Origin: Minisyncoccota bacterium
GTDB lineage: Bacteria > Patescibacteriota > Minisyncoccia > Phycocordibacterales > UBA918
Reading direction: 5' to 3'
Length of the DNA stretch: 52,628 nucleotides
NCBI GenBank assembly: GCA_036275695.1
Contig: DASUDI010000033.1
Location: 1 to 52,628, forward strand
The notes beneath the pieces are model-generated. The model made no database searches. It was not told where the DNA came from and saw only the letters and a list, made by a program, of their open reading frames with translations. A program made the translations under genes and the position numbers. Position 1 is the stretch's first letter; each line of letters starts with the position of its first letter. Positions 35,638 to 40,899 of this stretch are shown one piece after another.

Positions 35638-36342
35638 CTATGGCATATGTTCATATCGCTGTATAAACATGGTTGGTGCAAGATATGTATACCACCTCTC
35701 ATACAATTTGTATGTTGCAATAGTATCTGACATTGCGTGGTGTGCGATATCGCGGAACTTTTTCATCCGAAAAAGTTCCGCGATATCCTCCCCACTCACC
35801 TGCTCATTATCATACCCAACACCAAACGCGTCACACGCGAGACGCAGTGATGGCCATCGTGATAGTGCTCCATACCACGTACACTGATCAAGTAAATCAA
35901 CATGAAATACACCCGTCTGTTGTGATAAAAAACGCTTCTTCGTAATTTCAATACGAGGACGCACTCCACACATCGCGCTTCTTAGTGAGAGATACGGCAC
36001 GTCAAACATTCTTCCGTTGTAGGTGACAAATGTATCATAGTGCGTGGCGCCCTCCCAAAAATCCTCGAGCATTTCTTTTTCGGTACGCCGATGCCATGTG
36101 AAGTCACCATATTCATATCCATCTTCTATGTCTACTGCATATACAATACCCTTTTTACGTTCTACATCATACATACTCAGCGCGACAATCTCACCCGTAA
36201 ATGGTGAGAGCGGTAATCGTTCTTTCACACGCATGCGATCCTCATCGGTGTGAGCGTTCCGAAGTAGCGCATGATGCACAGTCTCTGAAAACAATTCCCA
36301 CGGCTTTGCGACTGTTTCAATATCGAATACGAGCGTTGCCAT
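35638..36342 (-). CDS. RNase H-fold 3'-5' exonuclease-like protein (PolB-exonuclease-related)
   Basis: MATLVFDIETVA (ExoI DxE), ...YNGRMFDVPYL (ExoII), ...HHAMSDTIATYKLY (ExoIII). I place the start at the ATG at 36342. Confidence 0.65.
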   Translation of the reverse strand: MATLVFDIETVAKPWELFSETVHHALLRNAHTDEDRMRVKERLPLSPFTGEIVALSMYDVERKKGIVYAVDIEDGYEYGDFTWHRRTEKEMLEDFWEGATHYDTFVTYNGRMFDVPYLSLRSAMCGVRPRIEITKKRFLSQQTGVFHVDLLDQCTWYGALSRWPSLRLACDAFGVGYDNEQVSGEDIAELFRMKKFRDIAHHAMSDTIATYKLYERWYTYLAPTMFIQRYEHMP

Positions 36343-36347
36343 ACATA

Positions 36348-37379
36348 CTAACCACCGGTAACGATGGGTCGTGGCGTCCCCATAAAACATGAGACAGTGT
36401 ACGGGTAGGTGTCCGTCATGTGATAATGGTACATATACGTTGCGATACCGTCCCATGTAATAATGTGCGCATGCCCATTGCACGCGTCAAGTGACTGCAC
36501 ATCGACAGGCGCTCCATTCTCCACCTGAGGATATATACCAAATCCATCGAGCGCATAACCAACACTTCCGTTATCATCCTTTTTGACGCACGTGCTCTCT
36601 GTGTGGTAGTGGTACACTCCCTGCGTATCGACATGTCCATTGCACGCGTCAAATCGTGAGTGCGCGCGCGCATCATAATCGCCTGAAAGTACTCCGCTGT
36701 ATATCAACGCACCTGAATGAAGTACTCCCACCGCTTCCCCTCGTGGCACACACGATACCTGTGACGCGCGCACCGGCACGCGTGGTATATCGAGCATGAA
36801 GGACTGTACTACAGATGCGTGAATATTTATGCCATCATCGGGCGATGTGGGGAAAGTACCCATTGCGTGTTTCGGTATACCATTCGTGTTTATCACACGC
36901 GCGGTTCCGGTGGCATATATCGTATACAAACTCGGTATCGTATACACACCCTCAATCACCGATTTCTTTGTCTCGTCATAAACTCCATCTGTAATCCACG
37001 TAGTTTCAGTAATAGGGGCTACGTCCACACCTTCGCCGGCACATGCATATAGAGATCCCTTACGCGGTGCGCTACTTACAGAGGCACCTACAAATGAATG
37101 TTCCGTTTTTAACACATGCGTCTCCTCATAATCAGTCTCTGCGACATCATCACTGCTCGTGTCAGCACGGAGTGATTCGCGCACGCGCTCAATAAATGCC
37201 ACACGATTTGCATGAGTGACAGGTGTTGATTCCGCGACACCATACACCGACTCTGATTCAACAAATACGTTATCAGTATGTATTGCGTTGTGATACATTC
37301 CCCGAATACTACACAAAAGCACAATCAAGAGCGCGATAGAGAGTAGCGCGGCAATGTAAGCATGCTTTGTACGAATCAT
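36348..37379 (-). CDS. YHYH-domain exported protein
   Basis: N-terminal TM. ACNGHVDTQGVYHYHTES and ACNGHAHIITWDGIATYMYHYHMTDTYPY. Confidence 0.7.
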   Translation of the reverse strand: MIRTKHAYIAALLSIALLIVLLCSIRGMYHNAIHTDNVFVESESVYGVAESTPVTHANRVAFIERVRESLRADTSSDDVAETDYEETHVLKTEHSFVGASVSSAPRKGSLYACAGEGVDVAPITETTWITDGVYDETKKSVIEGVYTIPSLYTIYATGTARVINTNGIPKHAMGTFPTSPDDGINIHASVVQSFMLDIPRVPVRASQVSCVPRGEAVGVLHSGALIYSGVLSGDYDARAHSRFDACNGHVDTQGVYHYHTESTCVKKDDNGSVGYALDGFGIYPQVENGAPVDVQSLDACNGHAHIITWDGIATYMYHYHMTDTYPYTVSCFMGTPRPIVTGG

Positions 37380-37437: not shown

Positions 37438-38727
37438 CTATTTCACCACGACATCTTTGGGAACCTTAGTTGGATCTACAAAAAATCCTTTCAGATCCTT
37501 TCTGCCAATAATAATAGGAAAACGAAGGTGACTTCGTTCGGTATACGTTGCAACAGTTTTGATGTACGTGCCTTTGAGACGAAAATACAACTGAACGGTT
37601 TTGCGTTTTTGCTGCCCACTCCCTGAACGTACATGCACTAGTTTATGGTGTAAATCAAGCCCTAATTCATGCACCAAATCTACATCGATTGAAGTACGGT
37701 ACGCTCCCGTATCAATTTTCGCATGTACGGTCTTTCGTTTTTTGTCGCCAATGATGGTTATTTTTTCAATTACACCGAGCATTTGGTTTTCCACTTCAAC
37801 TTCTGCAAGGGTGTGGTCTGCGAAAAGCTTCTGCGCGAGCTCAACTGCGCGCGCCACAGAAGGCACGTGCACATTGGCAACACGTTCTAGACGAGTGCGA
37901 AGTGAATCATCATTCGCAATCTGAATAGAAAGTCCGGGGCGCGCATTTACCTCCAATACCAAAGGCCCTCGTTCTTTATCAAGGACAATATCAATTCCCA
38001 CAAAACCAAGTTTTGATGCTTCCTGCGCGCGCACTGCAACAGTAAGTATCTTTTCCCAATTGGGAATCTTAATACCTCGCACCTTTATCTTCTTTCCGGG
38101 TATGTGTGTCACACGATCTCCACGCGCCACTCCATAGGTAGTTATGCCCGTGCGCATATCAATACCAATACCCACCGCACCAAGGTGGAGATTTGCCTTA
38201 CCACTTGAATGCACTGTTGGGATACGGAGCATTGCCATCACGGGTATCTTATTGCACACAATGACACGGATATCGGGAACACCTTTCTCAGTGAGCTTTT
38301 TGAAAAAAGGATGAATAAGAACACGTTCTTCGATGAACGCGGTATCAGGTAAATTATTCAATGAATACGCGCCGTCAAGCGCGCCGAATATTTCTGCTTC
38401 AAGACCAACAAAAGTGATATGTTCCTTTTTTGTACCAACACCCTCACTTCCATTCCACTTCCCCACGCACACAATACCCCTTCCGCCATATCCGTGTGAG
38501 GGTTTCAGTACAAAATGTTTTGGGAGTGACTTCCAGTCAAAATCACGAACTTCGTTGAGTGAATTGAAACGCGCGATGAAATTTGTCGTAGGTACGCCAT
38601 GTTTGAGCAAACGCTCTTTCGTCAGTAATTTATCATCCGCGATAAGTTTATACTTACGTTTATTAAACGCGCGGATATAGAGATAATTTCGCGCGTTTAT
38701 GCCAAGTACTGACTTACTTACTGCCAT
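37438..38727 (-). CDS. alpha-L-glutamate-ligase-like (RimK-related) ATP-grasp enzyme fused to a C-terminal retropepsin-like (RimB / 'Zn_protease' family) domain
   Basis: N-terminal LGINARNYLYIRAFNKRKYKLIADDKLLTKERLLKHGVPT..., KPSHGYGGRGI, GIDIVLD...PLVLEVNARPGLS (ATP-grasp). C-terminal IIGDKKRKTVHAKIDTGAYRTSID...FPIIIGRKDL, with DTGA at nt 37702-37713. Confidence 0.8.
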   Translation of the reverse strand: MAVSKSVLGINARNYLYIRAFNKRKYKLIADDKLLTKERLLKHGVPTTNFIARFNSLNEVRDFDWKSLPKHFVLKPSHGYGGRGIVCVGKWNGSEGVGTKKEHITFVGLEAEIFGALDGAYSLNNLPDTAFIEERVLIHPFFKKLTEKGVPDIRVIVCNKIPVMAMLRIPTVHSSGKANLHLGAVGIGIDMRTGITTYGVARGDRVTHIPGKKIKVRGIKIPNWEKILTVAVRAQEASKLGFVGIDIVLDKERGPLVLEVNARPGLSIQIANDDSLRTRLERVANVHVPSVARAVELAQKLFADHTLAEVEVENQMLGVIEKITIIGDKKRKTVHAKIDTGAYRTSIDVDLVHELGLDLHHKLVHVRSGSGQQKRKTVQLYFRLKGTYIKTVATYTERSHLRFPIIIGRKDLKGFFVDPTKVPKDVVVK

Positions 38728-38729
38728 AC

Positions 38730-39641
38730 TTAATCACCTAGGGTGTTAAATCGAAAATACTCAAAGAGGCGCAATCCAAAATATCGACCAATAATGATAT
38801 TCATGGGTATCACCAAGAGTACTATTTCAGGATAGAGTATGAGTATGTCTTGAACCGTATAACTCGACGAAAGAAAGTACCCAACTAATCCCAAAATTAA
38901 TGTGGTTCCCGTAATGGTAAATGTCTCACTTGTACTCTTATGGAGTTGCACTGATACGATAGAGTCGCCTATGAGTATCAAAATGAGAATGGGGAAAATT
39001 GAGAGACTTAACACTTGTGTAAAACCAACCATTAACGCAAACGTAAGTGCCAAAAATACAAACAGCGCGAGGAGAAGCATTGAGAGCGAGCGCTTCGGAT
39101 AAAACATGATTTTAGCGCGTGTTAAAAGTAGCCGAGATATGTACGCGGCGCAAAGAATTGCTGCAAGAATAATGAGTCCCACCACGATACCCACTGACAC
39201 AAGCGCGAACGCAAGTGCGACTGGTATGAGCATATCAAGCGTGGGCAAACCAATTACCACACGCGTCAAACTCACTAACGTTGCGAGGAATGGAGTAAGG
39301 AGTATCAAAAAAATAGTATTCGCGGGTATCCCCATCTCAACTGCACGTTGCACCCAATATGCCATGAATGAAAAAATCCCCGGTGAATCTACCTTACGAT
39401 CATCAAAACGAGAGATAATTGCTTCTTTTTCAGGAAGTTGCTCTGGCTGGGTGACGTTATTGTTGCGTGCATCAACTACATTTATCTGGTCGATGATATT
39501 TGCGATTGTCGATGAGCCGGCCACAGAAGATGAGGTGCTCTGCGTATTCATTTCAGCACCAGTGATGTCCTGAGCTGAGGTTGCCTGGGTACCAAGGATG
39601 CAGAAAAAAAATATATACGCACTCAATAGTTTTATTTTCAT
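38730..39641 (-). CDS. 7-TM membrane protein (7TM module of the '7TM_transglut' type, without a transglutaminase domain)
   Basis: Signal peptide, Ser/Thr-rich linker, then seven hydrophobic helices. Sits 1 nt and 2 nt from its neighbours. Confidence 0.6.
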   Translation of the reverse strand: MKIKLLSAYIFFFCILGTQATSAQDITGAEMNTQSTSSSVAGSSTIANIIDQINVVDARNNNVTQPEQLPEKEAIISRFDDRKVDSPGIFSFMAYWVQRAVEMGIPANTIFLILLTPFLATLVSLTRVVIGLPTLDMLIPVALAFALVSVGIVVGLIILAAILCAAYISRLLLTRAKIMFYPKRSLSMLLLALFVFLALTFALMVGFTQVLSLSIFPILILILIGDSIVSVQLHKSTSETFTITGTTLILGLVGYFLSSSYTVQDILILYPEIVLLVIPMNIIIGRYFGLRLFEYFRFNTLGD

Positions 39642-39642
39642 A

Positions 39643-40899
39643 TTACCACTGTGGCAAAATTTCTAATGCTTGTAAAGTTGTCACCTGTGCTTCATTGAGC
39701 GGGTCATATTTCCCGATAAATAAAGAACTATACAGATGAGGATTTTTTACGAGAAGATTCCAAATACCTACATTGCCTTCGAGATACACAATATCGCGCG
39801 TAAAGACTAACCCAGTGCACTGTCCCGTGGTTCCTCTAAATATACGTGCACACACCTCCCACGCCAACTGTTCTGCGCGTACACGGGTGTGCGAATCATG
39901 CGTGCGTGTAAGCGTGTAATAATCTACCATACATTCAAATACTGAACGGAAATCACGTGGCGTACCATCAAGTCCCACCGCTAAAGAAAGTGCGAAGTAA
40001 CGATCAAAACCATAGAACTCTGACGACCCTTCGATTTGTTGCTGCGCATATCCCGCAAGCCCCTCCTCACCACGCAGATATCCCGCGAGCCCATACTCAA
40101 GAAGTTTTAGTGACTGCTTCGCGCCCTCGTGCGCGCGTCTCACATGTACACCAATCTCGTGCTCCGCGAGTGCGCGTGCGCGCGTTTCTGTAAACAAAAT
40201 CTTCCGCTCACGGAGTGCAGAATCAGGTGGAATATACACACATTTATGTTGAGAGTGCACAGAGAATATTCTCCGTCTGGGATCGATGCGTACACTCCAC
40301 CCGTCAATCTCATAATTCATGAGTGTTTTGAGAAATATATCTTTTGTTTCCTCCGCAGAAATGACAATACCATCTGTCTCTGATATTTCTGGGAGCATAT
40401 CTGGAGACACAATATCATGCGTCATAGAGATTTTTGAAGTAATCGCATGCATCCTCAATTGCGCATCTCGATGAGAAGATGGCACCTGCATATTGGAAAC
40501 CTGTGCGTGAATTCTATGTGCCACATACGAAAAAAAAGATTTTTTAGGCGCCCCGTAGAGTGTCACACTATGTTCAAAAAAACCAATATCGTCACCAACG
40601 CGCGTACACTCAAACATCATAAGTCGCGTTAAATGCGCGTCAATTTTATCGATATACAATCTATAAATGTACGGGTTTGTCTCTTCGCGTGATATTAATG
40701 CTCTGAGTGCGTGGAGTGCTGAAATTTTTTCTCTCTGACTTGTGGTGGTATCACACACAAAACGCGGATTCTCAATTTTATGTTCAAGGAAGCGTTCTTG
40801 TTCATATTTTGGCACATGCACCAAATCACGTAACCACGTAGTATCTGCTGACACCGTAATTTCTAATAACTGCTGATACCACCGCGAGTCAATTGGCAT
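39643..40899 (-). CDS. DUF1704 / MATCAP-like metallocarboxypeptidase ('QEGLA motif' family)
   Basis: HEIGVH (HExxH, nt 40144-40161), followed 26 aa later by GEEGLAGY (nt 40054-40068). Length 418 aa. GNVGIW and YDP occur near the C-terminus. Confidence 0.75.
   Translation of the reverse strand: MPIDSRWYQQLLEITVSADTTWLRDLVHVPKYEQERFLEHKIENPRFVCDTTTSQREKISALHALRALISREETNPYIYRLYIDKIDAHLTRLMMFECTRVGDDIGFFEHSVTLYGAPKKSFFSYVAHRIHAQVSNMQVPSSHRDAQLRMHAITSKISMTHDIVSPDMLPEISETDGIVISAEETKDIFLKTLMNYEIDGWSVRIDPRRRIFSVHSQHKCVYIPPDSALRERKILFTETRARALAEHEIGVHVRRAHEGAKQSLKLLEYGLAGYLRGEEGLAGYAQQQIEGSSEFYGFDRYFALSLAVGLDGTPRDFRSVFECMVDYYTLTRTHDSHTRVRAEQLAWEVCARIFRGTTGQCTGLVFTRDIVYLEGNVGIWNLLVKNPHLYSSLFIGKYDPLNEAQVTTLQALEILPQW

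What the first reader, a model, noticed from the sequence alone, without database searches (positions are those of the whole stretch)
37438..40899. Compact three-gene 'write/erase' peptide-tail module: MATCAP/DUF1704-like carboxypeptidase, 7-TM protein, RimK-related ATP-grasp ligase fused to a retropepsin
Three same-strand genes are separated by only 1 and 2 nt, so they almost certainly form one translationally coupled unit.

Gene 1 (39643-40899) carries HEIGVH followed by GEEGLAGY. This is the HExxH plus QEGLA-type signature of the DUF1704 family, whose animal member MATCAP is a tubulin C-terminal tyrosine carboxypeptidase.

Gene 2 (38730-39641) is a signal peptide, a Ser/Thr-rich linker and a 7-TM module.

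Gene 3 (37438-38727) is an alpha-L-glutamate-ligase-like ATP-grasp enzyme, a relative of RimK. RimK adds C-terminal Glu residues to ribosomal protein S6.

An ATP-grasp amino-acid ligase paired with a C-terminal metallocarboxypeptidase is the same logic as the eukaryotic TTL/TTLL versus MATCAP/CCP cycle. As far as I recall, this gene association has been noted only in comparative-genomic and family-annotation work in proteobacteria. No substrate, signal (the 7-TM partner suggests membrane sensing) or physiological role has been defined. Finding it in a streamlined genome suggests it is not dispensable baggage.
Basis: partly seen in the sequence, partly recalled or inferred. Interest (0 to 1): 0.8.

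Follow-up and report, generated by a model that had tools for sequence, protein, structure and literature searches.

The report
Rlo-like peptide ligase–peptidase membrane module
Three back-to-back genes in a tiny-genome (CPR) bacterium encode an enzyme that probably builds acidic peptide chains, two enzymes that probably cut them back, and a membrane partner. This is a compact variant, absent from the literature I could search, of a bacterial system recently tied to osmotic-stress survival, and it shows that bacterial relatives of the tubulin-trimming enzyme MATCAP usually sit beside such chain-building enzymes.

Summary
Three minus-strand genes, separated by 1 and 2 nt, encode a MATCAP/DUF1704 metallopeptidase, a 7TM_transglut membrane protein and an ATPgrasp_ST (TIGR02291-like) ligase fused to a RimB/RloA-type retropepsin. 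All catalytic residues are invariant. One correction: the metal motif is HExxxH, not HExxH.

The three genes stay linked in 20 of 35 CPR species loci while gene order and flanking genes change. The four domains also occur fused in several combinations, for example ligase::retropepsin::MATCAP and retropepsin::7TM::ligase. Across 80 species, 62 DUF1704 genes have an ATP-grasp ligase within 3.5 kb.

The ligase, 7TM and retropepsin parts correspond to the Pseudomonas rloABC operon (mBio 2025: hypo-osmotic tolerance; RloA cleaves poly-Glu) and to RimK/RimB. So "no role defined" is outdated for those parts, but still true for DUF1704.

Most likely this is a membrane-docked machine that makes an acidic alpha-peptide (probably poly-Glu) and trims it with an endopeptidase and a carboxypeptidase. 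Whether the chain is free, exported or a protein tail is unknown.

It is a new variant of a known kind, of moderate interest.

The parts
39643..40899 (-). Gene 1: cytosolic MATCAP/DUF1704-family (QEGLA-type) zinc metallopeptidase, 418 aa, with no signal peptide
   Evidence: PF08014 E=2.3e-25. TIGR02421 E=2.8e-22 but below its cut-off. A profile of 23 homologues hits the human MATCAP structure 7z5g at E=9e-8, with the catalytic motifs aligned.
40144..40161 (-). HEIGVH = HExxxH metal-binding/catalytic motif (H247, E248, H252)
   Evidence: Invariant in 23 CPR homologues. Aligns with HEIGTH of MATCAP. Coordinates verified.
40054..40071 (-). GEEGLA motif (G277-A282), the 'QEGLA' signature and a candidate third metal ligand
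   Evidence: G277, E278, E279, G280 and A282 are invariant. Aligns with TEEGLAS of MATCAP.
38730..39641 (-). Gene 2: membrane partner, 303 aa, homologous to the 7TM half of RloB but without the inactive transglutaminase domain
   Evidence: PF14402 E=1.7e-21. Matches only positions 313-504 of the RloB model NF052267. All 120 listed homologues are 287-345 aa and carry only PF14402.
39573..39641 (-). Signal-peptide-like N-terminus of gene 2 (MKIKLLSAYIFFFCILGTQATSA)
   Evidence: Read from the sequence. Modelled as a helix at residues 2-21.
39462..39572 (-). Low-complexity linker rich in S/T/N/Q (residues 24-60), inferred to lie outside the cell. It occupies the position held by an inactive transglutaminase, PKD or retropepsin domain in relatives
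   Evidence: 46% S/T/N/Q. pLDDT <50 for residues 24-42. Variable N-terminal domains in relatives.
38742..39323 (-). Seven-helix transmembrane bundle (residues 107-300)
   Evidence: AF2 pLDDT about 86-95 over most of the bundle. No structural neighbour in the PDB, best E=2.2. K/R residues cluster in the loops predicted to face the cytoplasm (sequence).
38748..38789 (-). Conserved cytoplasmic C-terminal motif GRYFGLRLFEYFRF, a candidate docking helix for the ligase
   Evidence: G285, R286, Y287, F288, G289, L290, R291, E294, R297 and F298 are invariant. The motif is conserved from CPR to a gammaproteobacterial MAG. In P0410 it is followed within about 20 residues by the ATP-grasp N-terminus.
37819..38727 (-). 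Gene 3, N-terminal domain: RloC-type ATP-grasp amino-acid/peptide ligase (ATPgrasp_ST, TIGR02291-like), residues 1-303
   Evidence: PF14397 E=5e-64 and TIGR02291 E=8e-79. K75, R154, N179, D246, E259, N261 and R263 are invariant, and D246/E259/N261 align with RimK GVDIL..MEVNASPG. The AF2 model's nearest folds are ArgX/LysX, RimK and cyanophycin synthetase at about 1e-10.
37777..37818 (-). Interdomain linker (residues 304-317), with no hydrophobic segment
   Evidence: pLDDT <50 for residues 309-317. Sequence DHTLAEVEVENQML.
37441..37776 (-). Gene 3, C-terminal domain: RimB/RloA-type retropepsin (residues 318-429). It is cytoplasmic, because it is fused to the ligase and no membrane segment intervenes
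   Evidence: PF05618 31.9 bits against a cut-off of 27. The domain profile hits RloA crystal structures 9g59 and 9g58 and also 2pma, best E=1.8e-5. It contains no cysteine, like cytosolic RimB (PMC12239564).
37705..37713 (-). Catalytic D339-T340-G341 of the retropepsin
   Evidence: K337, D339, T340, G341 and A342 are invariant. Aligns with AKMDTGAY of RloA.

Best explanation
This is a compact CPR (Patescibacteria) version of the Rim/Rlo class of ATP-grasp ligase plus peptidase systems, and it works as one membrane-associated complex.

- Ligase: the ATP-grasp domain of gene 3 uses ATP to add amino acids stepwise to a carboxyl terminus. The product is most likely an alpha-linked acidic chain (poly-L-glutamate or similar), either free or on an unidentified acceptor.
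- Endopeptidase: the retropepsin domain on the same polypeptide should pair into a dimer, as retropepsins do, through oligomers of the ligase. It would cut inside long acidic runs.
- Carboxypeptidase: gene 1, a cytosolic MATCAP-family zinc peptidase, would nibble residues from the C-terminal end.
- Membrane partner: gene 2 has its N-terminus outside and its C-terminus inside. It would hold the ligase at the membrane through its conserved C-terminal helix, and it either conducts the product across the membrane or couples synthesis to the state of the envelope.
- Role: by analogy with Rlo and with low-salinity induction in Photobacterium, the likely physiological role is osmotic or envelope homeostasis.

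Shown here: domain identities, intact catalytic residues, conserved linkage, the domain fusions and the predicted topology.

Inferred: the amino acid added, the nature of the acceptor, the division of labour between the two peptidases, the role of the 7TM protein and the physiology.
For: Domain identity and catalytic residues:
- Family hits are above Pfam thresholds and the catalytic residues are invariant.
- The nearest folds to the ligase are enzymes that extend protein or peptide C-termini: ArgX/LysX, RimK and cyanophycin synthetase.
- The retropepsin keeps K337-x-D339. It also keeps two invariant Arg residues, R375 and R398, that align with conserved Arg positions in RloA. They are 23 residues apart, as are RloA R114 and R137, whose mutation abolishes poly-Glu cleavage and in vivo function (PMC12239564, section 8).

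Linkage:
- Tight spacing of 1 and 2 nt.
- The same three genes occur in 20 of 35 CPR species loci, in two different gene orders, while flanking genes are not conserved.
- Fusions link all four domains: ATPgrasp_ST::retropepsin::MATCAP (P0416, P0446), ATPgrasp_ST::MATCAP (L041), retropepsin::7TM::ATPgrasp_ST (P0410) and retropepsin::7TM (P0411, P0384, P0472, P0379).
- A ligase lies within 3.5 kb of DUF1704 in 62 of 80 species.

Topology:
- Signal peptide, K/R-rich loops on the predicted inner side, and the P0410 fusion, which puts the ATP-requiring ligase at the 7TM C-terminus.

Literature:
- RimK makes poly-alpha-Glu, RimB stimulates it and trims the product, and a RimB-RimK hybrid is active (PMC11957791, sections 5 and 8).
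- Deleting rloB or rloC suppresses the phenotypes of the triple rloA1-3 deletion, so the ligase and the 7TM protein act upstream of the protease (PMC12239564, section 11).
- A QEGLA gene and its adjacent ATP-grasp gene are induced 27-38-fold at low salinity (PMC10308900).
Against: - There is no biochemistry for any CPR member, for any RloC-type ligase or for any bacterial DUF1704 protein. The amino acid added is unknown.
- TIGR02291 and TIGR02421 score below their equivalog cut-offs, so function cannot simply be transferred.
- Pfam names the ligase family 'sugar-transfer associated', which hints at a cell-surface polysaccharide context.
- The retropepsin segment between the DTG motif and R375 is about 30 residues shorter than in RloA, which may change specificity.
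- Here both peptidases are cytoplasmic, whereas RloA is secreted, so the Rlo logic may not transfer directly.
- 12 of 35 CPR DUF1704 loci have no ATP-grasp ligase, 7TM or retropepsin nearby.
- No acceptor or acidic-tailed protein was found in the window.
- I did not test directly that Pseudomonas RloC belongs to the same ligase subfamily as gene 3.
Confidence: 0.5

Rival explanations
1. Protein-tail write/erase cycle. The ligase adds residues to the C-terminus of one specific protein, as RimK does to S6 or TTL/TTLL do to tubulin. The retropepsin and the MATCAP-like peptidase remove them, switching that protein's activity. The 7TM protein is a sensor that sets the balance.
For: - RimK/RimB work this way on RpsF (PMC11957791).
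- The MATCAP family removes C-terminal residues from acidic tubulin tails (family description of PF08014; own knowledge).
- The closest folds, ArgX/LysX and RimK, act on protein C-termini.
- The RloA authors consider post-translationally polyglutamylated proteins to be possible substrates (PMC12239564, discussion).
Against: - No candidate acceptor is known. No protein in the window has an acidic tail or a poly-E/D run.
- The 7TM C-terminus is not conserved at its very end, and in P0410 it is occupied by the ligase, so it is not a general acceptor.
- Extracytoplasmic retropepsins in relatives (RloA) imply a product that leaves the cytoplasm, which fits a cytosolic protein tail poorly.
- RimK also makes free poly-Glu.
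Confidence: 0.22
2. Exported envelope polymer. The ligase makes an anionic peptide that the 7TM protein translocates to the cell surface as an envelope or capsule component, or as an osmotic counter-ion analogous to osmoregulated periplasmic glucans. The cytoplasmic peptidases only size the polymer or recycle the surplus.
For: - The retropepsin is placed outside the membrane in RloA and in the retropepsin::7TM fusions, all of which begin with a signal or anchor sequence.
- The extracytoplasmic N-terminal domain of the 7TM protein varies: PKD, inactive transglutaminase, retropepsin or an S/T-rich linker.
- Conserved charged or polar residues lie within the bundle: R127, D226, Q232, E272 and N281.
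- Phenotypes of the triple rloA1-3 deletion concern cell shape, beta-lactam sensitivity and hypo-osmotic survival (PMC12239564).
- Pfam labels the ligase family as 'sugar-transfer associated'.
Against: - The 7TM fold has no transporter-like neighbour in the PDB.
- In this CPR version both peptidases are cytoplasmic, so most processing happens before any export.
- No energy-coupling component is encoded.
Confidence: 0.2
3. Small-molecule or cofactor glutamylation. The ligase adds Glu to a metabolite, as CofF and MptN do for F420 and H4MPT, or makes a glutathione-like peptide. DUF1704 would hydrolyse that product.
For: - There are weak hits to MptN, CofF and LysX models.
- In non-CPR bacteria the DUF1704 partner is a glutathione-synthetase-like ligase (PRK12458) together with an N-formylglutamate-amidohydrolase-like domain.
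Against: - A retropepsin endopeptidase needs a long peptide. RloA needs at least 8 Glu (PMC12239564).
- The MATCAP family acts on protein and peptide C-termini.
- The membrane partner is not explained.
- The hits to the cofactor ligases are far below their cut-offs.
Confidence: 0.05
4. Chance adjacency, or an unrelated system such as anti-phage defence.
For: None beyond a single very weak PADLOC hit (E=0.0012, 17 bits).
Against: - Linkage is conserved across rearrangements.
- Multiple domain fusions exist.
- There is no credible defence-family hit.
Confidence: 0.02

Closest known systems
rloABC operon of Pseudomonas aeruginosa (Lormand et al., mBio 2025, PMC12239564)
   Same: - A 7TM_transglut membrane protein, a cytosolic ATP-grasp ligase and a RimB-like retropepsin are encoded together.
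- Gene 2 matches the 7TM half of the RloB model.
- The retropepsin domain's best solved relatives are the RloA structures 9g59 and 9g58.
   Different: - The retropepsin is fused to the C-terminus of the ligase and is cytoplasmic, with no signal peptide and no disulfide cysteines. RloA is secreted.
- The 7TM protein lacks the inactive transglutaminase domain.
- A MATCAP/DUF1704 peptidase is part of the unit, whereas the paper describes rlo as a three-gene operon (rloA, rloB, rloC).
- The host is a CPR bacterium, not a proteobacterium.
- Whether RloC belongs to the same ligase subfamily was not tested directly.
RimK/RimB and the RimBK hybrid (Little et al., JBC 2025, PMC11957791)
   Same: - An ATP-grasp alpha-L-glutamate-ligase-type enzyme works with a cytosolic retropepsin that cuts poly-Glu.
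- Ligase and protease can be fused in one protein.
- The metal and ATP ligands align with RimK.
   Different: - Gene 3 is not RimK: TIGR00768 scores 60.9 against a cut-off of 143.4, and the S6 ligase model scores 23 against 331.
- The domain order is reversed: ligase-N/protease-C here, protease-N/ligase-C in RimBK.
- Rim has no membrane partner and no MATCAP-like peptidase.
- No S6 link is shown here.
Eukaryotic tubulin tail cycle: TTL/TTLL ligases versus MATCAP carboxypeptidase
   Same: - The same two enzyme superfamilies are paired: an ATP-grasp amino-acid ligase and a PF08014 HExxxH/EEGLA metallopeptidase.
- The catalytic motifs of gene 1 align with the human MATCAP structure.
   Different: - Similarity to MATCAP is distant (E=9e-8 only with a profile). 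Similarity of gene 3 to TTL is marginal (E=3.5e-4).
- There is no tubulin.
- Extra retropepsin and 7TM components are present.
- The substrate is unknown.
- An evolutionary link is a hypothesis and was not tested here.
'Type I' bacterial DUF1704 clusters: N-formylglutamate-amidohydrolase-like + QEGLA protein + glutathione-synthetase-like ligase (for example Shinella plasmid CP069302.1, JQ506_01570-01580)
   Same: A DUF1704 peptidase lies directly adjacent to an ATP-grasp ligase. This holds in 37 of 45 non-CPR loci.
   Different: - The ligase subfamily is different (PRK12458, not TIGR02291-like).
- An FGase-like domain is present in place of a retropepsin.
- There is no 7TM partner.

Membership tests
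MATCAP / DUF1704 (Pfam PF08014) | Profile match above the Pfam gathering score | tested here: met
   89.8 bits against a cut-off of 27, E=2.3e-25.
MATCAP / DUF1704 (Pfam PF08014) | HExxxH metal/catalytic motif plus the downstream (Q/E)EGLA glutamate | tested here: met
   H247, E248, H252 and G277-E-E-G-x-A282 are invariant in 23 homologues. They align with HEIGTH and TEEGLAS of the MATCAP structure 7z5g.
MATCAP / DUF1704 (Pfam PF08014) | Carboxypeptidase activity on acidic C-terminal tails | not testable with these tools
   Requires an enzyme assay.
TIGR02421 'QEGLA motif protein' (NCBIfam equivalog) | Score above the curated cut-off | tested here: not met
   79.5 bits against 338.65. Gene 1 is a distant CPR branch, not an equivalog.
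RloB (inactive-transglutaminase 7TM protein) | 7TM_transglut membrane domain | tested here: met
   PF14402 scores 77.3 against 25. Gene 2 aligns to positions 313-504 of the 508-position model NF052267.
RloB (inactive-transglutaminase 7TM protein) | N-terminal periplasmic inactive transglutaminase domain | tested here: not met
   Only residues 109-300 match. Residues 1-106 are a signal peptide, a low-complexity linker and juxtamembrane helices. NF052267 scores 44 against a cut-off of 900. All 120 listed homologues carry only PF14402.
RloC-type / TIGR02291 alpha-L-glutamate-ligase-like ATP-grasp | Profile match and intact ATP-grasp catalytic residues | tested here: inconclusive
   PF14397 scores 216.5 against 31.4 (met). 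TIGR02291 scores 264.9 against a cut-off of 314.2, so just below. K75, R154, N179, D246, E259 and N261 are invariant. The Pseudomonas RloC sequence itself was not compared.
RimK (S6 alpha-L-glutamate ligase) | Match to the RimK family or equivalog models | tested here: not met
   TIGR00768 scores 60.9 against 143.4, and NF007764 scores 23.3 against 331. Only the C-terminal ATP-grasp core aligns.
RimB/RloA retropepsin-like peptidases (PF05618) | Profile match, D-T-G catalytic motif and conserved substrate-channel arginines | tested here: met
   PF05618 scores 31.9 against 27. The domain profile matches RloA structure 9g59 at E=1.8e-5. D339-T-G, K337, R375 and R398 are invariant.
RloA (secreted subclass) | N-terminal signal peptide, periplasmic location and a conserved disulfide pair | tested here: not met
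   The domain is fused behind a cytosolic ligase with no membrane segment between them, and it contains no cysteine. RloA3 and RloA2 models score 31.8 and 22, far below their cut-offs of 210 and 250.
RimB/RloA retropepsin-like peptidases (PF05618) | Homodimer that forms the catalytic Asp dyad | not testable with these tools
RimBK hybrid | Retropepsin at the N-terminus of a RimK-family ligase | tested here: not met
   The order here is ligase-N/retropepsin-C and the ligase is ATPgrasp_ST, not RimK. A true RimBK-like protein does occur beside DUF1704 in L027.
rlo-type operon (as a system) | 7TM_transglut protein, ATP-grasp ligase and retropepsin encoded together and acting in one pathway | tested here: inconclusive
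   Co-encoding is met and is reinforced by fusions. Action in one pathway is inferred only from Pseudomonas genetics (PMC12239564).

The most novel reading that the evidence does not exclude
The bacterial pairing of a MATCAP-family peptidase with an ATP-grasp ligase could be the ancestral 'writer/eraser' unit from which the eukaryotic tubulin tyrosination and glutamylation enzymes (TTL/TTLL and MATCAP) descend. In CPR bacteria the four-domain membrane version would then be a core osmotic or envelope-homeostasis device. It would polymerise cytoplasmic glutamate into an osmotically inert or exported polyanion and break it down again, under control of the 7TM protein.
Probability: 0.15. Interest if true: 0.8.

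Novelty: new variant of a known kind. Interest (0 to 1): 0.55.

Why it matters
- Mechanism of Rlo/Rim systems: Rlo and Rim have been shown to matter for stress tolerance, biofilm and antibiotic resistance in Pseudomonas, but their true product and the role of the 7TM protein are unknown. The fusions found here (ligase::retropepsin::MATCAP, retropepsin::7TM::ligase) indicate which parts are likely to contact each other and on which side of the membrane each sits.
- A third player: they add an uncharacterised component, the MATCAP-like carboxypeptidase.
- A working hypothesis for DUF1704: the near-universal adjacency of bacterial DUF1704 genes to ATP-grasp ligases gives this large 'hypothetical' family a testable function. 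It also suggests a prokaryotic origin for both halves of the tubulin-tail cycle.
- A minimal model system: the CPR version has only three genes, and its ligase is 59-70% identical to those of its Paceibacteria-type relatives, which makes it attractive for reconstitution.

Tried and rejected
- Nearby substrate: I scanned all likely genes of the window for poly-E/D runs or acidic C-termini and found none.
- 7TM protein as the acceptor: its extreme C-terminus is variable. It ends in D or E in 7 of the 14 distinct sequences of the long (>=300 aa) form, is mostly basic in the short (~215 aa) Moranbacteria-type form, and is occupied by the ligase in P0410. Rejected as a general acceptor.
- YHYH, exonuclease, DsbA, GH1 and methyltransferase neighbours as module members: they are conserved only among close relatives, so this is local synteny.
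- Anti-phage defence: PADLOC gave nothing credible.
- Fold of the 7TM protein: the model is confident but has no PDB neighbour, best E=2.2, so this gave no clue to function.
- Single-sequence searches against the PDB were too weak to be useful. Profiles were needed.
- Promoter and terminator scans: promoter-like sites were at the level expected by chance and terminator-like sites only modestly above it (12 found against 5.8 expected), and none was convincing. An extended -10-like TGGTAAAAT lies upstream of gene 1; this is a guess only.
- Literature: Iyer et al. 2009 (PMC3268129), the comparative-genomics paper most likely to have noted these associations, is not held. Several searches timed out. 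No paper in the library mentions MATCAP together with ATP-grasp. Accession-number searches returned only noise.

Full report
**Observation.**
The mechanical ORF list reproduces the three minus-strand genes exactly: g1 39643-40899 (418 aa), g2 38730-39641 (303 aa) and g3 37438-38727 (429 aa). One nucleotide separates the g1 stop from the g2 start, and two nucleotides separate the g2 stop from the g3 start. HEIGVH and GEEGLA are present in g1 at 40144-40161 and 40054-40071. The only factual slip is that H-E-I-G-V-H is an HExxxH motif, not HExxH.

**What the proteins are.**
- g1 is a member of Pfam MATCAP/DUF1704 (E=2.3e-25). Its best NCBIfam hit is the QEGLA family TIGR02421, but far below the equivalog cut-off.
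- In an alignment of 23 homologues, H247, E248, H252 and G277-E-E-G-x-A282 are invariant. A profile of that alignment finds the human MATCAP structure 7z5g at E=9e-8, with HEIGTH and TEEGLAS aligned to these motifs.
- g2 matches only the 7TM half of the RloB model. It has no inactive transglutaminase domain.
- g3 is an ATPgrasp_ST / TIGR02291-like ligase at residues 1-303 (E=5e-64 and 8e-79). A disordered 14-residue linker joins it to a RimB/RloA-type retropepsin at residues 318-429.
- The ATP-grasp ligands K75, R154, N179, D246, E259 and N261 are invariant, and D246/E259/N261 align with RimK.
- The AF2 model (pLDDT 81.6) is closest to ArgX/LysX, RimK and cyanophycin synthetase, which all extend peptide or protein carboxyl termini.
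- The retropepsin domain keeps K337-x-D339-T-G. A domain profile hits the RloA crystal structures 9g59 and 9g58 (E=1.8e-5).
- The domain has two invariant arginines 23 residues apart, R375 and R398, aligned with conserved Arg positions in RloA. That is the same spacing as RloA R114 and R137, which are needed for poly-Glu cleavage (PMC12239564, section 8). The domain has no cysteines, like cytosolic RimB.

**Organism and conservation.**
- All close homologues of the three proteins come from Patescibacteria/CPR: Kaiserbacteria, Nomurabacteria, Pacebacteria and Paceibacterota.
- The best 120 hits to the ligase::retropepsin fusion are 60-84% identical, nearly all over the full length.
- Against its Paceibacteria-type relatives, g3 is 59-70% identical, the membrane part of g2 56-67% and g1 33-45%. 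Neighbouring genes are 43-69% identical in the closest of those relatives.

**Linkage.**
- A scan of one genome per species returned 80 loci that encode a DUF1704 relative. I surveyed them with HMMs built from the window's own domains.
- Paceibacteria-type loci have the window's order: DUF1704, then 7TM, then ligase::retropepsin.
- Moranbacteria-type loci have a short 7TM gene (about 215 aa), then ligase::retropepsin, then usually one or two further RimK-like ligases, then DUF1704.
- In all, 20 of 35 CPR loci hold the full set, and 12 hold DUF1704 with none of the partners nearby.
- Flanking genes (DsbA, exonuclease, GH1, methyltransferase, YHYH) are shared only by close relatives, so the unit is made of the three genes themselves.
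- Outside CPR, 37 of 45 loci have a glutathione-synthetase-like ATP-grasp gene (PRK12458) directly adjacent to DUF1704. DUF1704 is often fused to an N-formylglutamate-amidohydrolase-like domain.
- An annotated example is Shinella plasmid CP069302.1, genes JQ506_01570-01580.
- Overall, 62 of 80 DUF1704 genes have a ligase within 3.5 kb.

**Fusions.**
- An exhaustive search with the retropepsin domain, followed by Pfam scans and context look-ups, showed that the four domain types are fused in many combinations:
  - ATPgrasp_ST::retropepsin::MATCAP (P0416 and P0446, about 800 aa).
  - ATPgrasp_ST::MATCAP (L041, 783 aa), next to a PKD::7TM protein.
  - retropepsin::7TM::ATPgrasp_ST (P0410).
  - retropepsin::7TM (P0411, P0384, P0472), and a doubled retropepsin::7TM (P0379).
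- L087 is an expanded operon with four ligases (one within the triple fusion) and two MATCAP-family domains.
- This network is strong evidence that the products work as one complex.

**Topology.**
- g2 has a signal-peptide-like N-terminus and a linker rich in S/T/N/Q. It then has a confident seven-helix bundle (pLDDT about 86-95 over most of it) with no structural neighbour in the PDB.
- K/R residues cluster in the loops that an N-out/C-in topology places inside the cell.
- The C-terminal motif GRYFGLRLFEYFRF is nearly invariant from CPR to a gammaproteobacterial MAG.
- In P0410 this motif runs within about 20 residues into the N-terminus of the ATP-requiring ligase. All retropepsin::7TM fusions start with a signal or anchor sequence.
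- So the 7TM N-terminus is outside and carries a variable domain: inactive transglutaminase, PKD, retropepsin, or here just a linker. The C-terminus is inside, beside the ligase.
- In relatives the retropepsin can therefore sit on either side of the membrane. In the window it is cytoplasmic, as is g1.

**What is known.**
- RimK makes poly-alpha-glutamate and glutamylates S6. RimB, a cytosolic retropepsin, trims these chains and stimulates RimK, and an N-terminal RimB::RimK hybrid is active (PMC11957791, sections 5, 8 and 13).
- In P. aeruginosa the rloABC operon encodes a secreted retropepsin, an inactive-transglutaminase 7TM protein and an ATP-grasp protein.
- The triple protease mutant dies in hypo-osmotic medium, and deleting rloB or rloC rescues it. 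RloA cuts runs of at least 8 Glu (PMC12239564, sections 8 and 11).
- In Photobacterium a QEGLA gene and the adjacent ATP-grasp gene are induced 27-38-fold at low salinity (PMC10308900).
- I found no paper that connects MATCAP/DUF1704 with ATP-grasp ligases. The 2009 comparative-genomics paper that may mention these neighbourhoods is not held. From memory, the TIGRFAM notes for TIGR02421 and TIGR02291 mention their adjacency in Proteobacteria.

**Most likely mechanism (confidence about 0.5).**
- The module is a membrane-docked ligase/peptidase machine.
- The ligase builds an acidic alpha-peptide, probably poly-Glu, at the cytoplasmic face of the 7TM protein.
- The fused retropepsin cuts long runs internally, and the MATCAP-like enzyme trims from the C-terminus.
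- The 7TM protein anchors the complex and either conducts or gates the product.
- A role in osmotic or envelope homeostasis is suggested only by analogy.
- Shown here: identities, catalytic residues, linkage, fusions and predicted topology. Everything about chemistry and physiology is inferred.

**Rivals.**
- Export of a surface polyanion (about 0.2).
- Small-molecule glutamylation (about 0.05).
- Chance adjacency or defence (about 0.02).

**Comparison and membership.**
- The module works like Rlo and Rim, but it is not a member of any named equivalog.
- Four defining features were tested and not met:
  - The TIGR02421, RimK and RloB model cut-offs (TIGR02291 falls just below its cut-off).
  - The RloB transglutaminase domain.
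  - The RloA signal peptide.
  - The RimBK domain order.
- It is best described as a new architectural variant of the Rlo/Rim kind, with a MATCAP-family peptidase as an integral third enzyme.

**Verdict.**
The finding is a new variant of a known kind, with interest 0.55. Its main value lies in the fusion and adjacency evidence. That evidence gives bacterial DUF1704 a testable function, constrains the architecture of Rlo-type systems, and hints at a prokaryotic root for the tubulin-tail writer/eraser pair.

Noticed in passing
P0461 (protein; Pfam): A 539-aa protein fuses a class I lysyl-tRNA synthetase (PF01921, E=2e-84) to a C-terminal RimB-like retropepsin. This combination is unexpected.
   Followed up: no
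L087:1870-10678: An expanded operon encodes PKD::7TM, ATPgrasp_ST::retropepsin::MATCAP (800 aa), three further ATP-grasp ligase genes and a second MATCAP-family gene (575 aa). This suggests that some versions build hetero-peptides with several ligases.
   Followed up: partly
L043-L086; L090:3457-7199 (Shinella plasmid CP069302.1): Outside CPR, DUF1704 forms a different conserved trio: an N-formylglutamate-amidohydrolase-like domain (fused or separate), the QEGLA protein and a 'glutathione synthase'-annotated ATP-grasp gene (PRK12458). It occurs in 120 plasmid or chromid records, mostly Sinorhizobium, and its members are annotated with unrelated names.
   Followed up: partly
L027:5408-9239; L040:120-5424: Saccharibacteria-labelled genomes pair DUF1704 with canonical RimK-type ligases and no 7TM gene. 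L027 also has a RimBK-like retropepsin::RimK fusion. L040 has three RimK-like genes and two DUF1704 genes.
   Followed up: partly
L014:3806-4762 and equivalents in L017, L019, L037: The second ligase in Moranbacteria-type loci hits the tubulin-tyrosine-ligase family (PF03133, E=7e-11) as well as RimK. It lies near a MATCAP-family gene.
   Followed up: no
P0365, P0367, P0374, P0382, P0389: Proteins of 220-270 aa contain two tandem retropepsin domains. These are pepsin-like pseudo-dimers that arose within this bacterial retropepsin family.
   Followed up: no
window 38742-39323 (model m7b11707324a5): The 7TM_transglut bundle is modelled confidently, but no solved structure resembles it (best Foldseek E=2.2). 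This widespread membrane fold has no experimental representative.
   Followed up: yes
window 36348-37379 and 35638-36483: A secreted or anchored YHYH-domain protein follows the module. The exonuclease ORF overlaps it by 136 nt in the mechanical ORF list, but the gene called in L005 is shorter (234 aa), so its true start is probably further downstream.
   Followed up: partly
window 1-52628: GC skew is negative throughout the window and nearly all likely genes lie on the minus strand. This is consistent with a single replichore with strong gene-strand bias.
   Followed up: no
L032:7962-10681; L015, L021, L024, L026, L028, L030, L031, L033, L035, L036, L039: Twelve CPR loci have DUF1704 with no ATP-grasp ligase, 7TM or retropepsin within the up-to-8-kb flanks held, although some contigs are short. 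L032 has two tandem DUF1704 paralogues. Gracilibacteria (L033) may use an alternative genetic code that would break my ORF calls.
   Followed up: no
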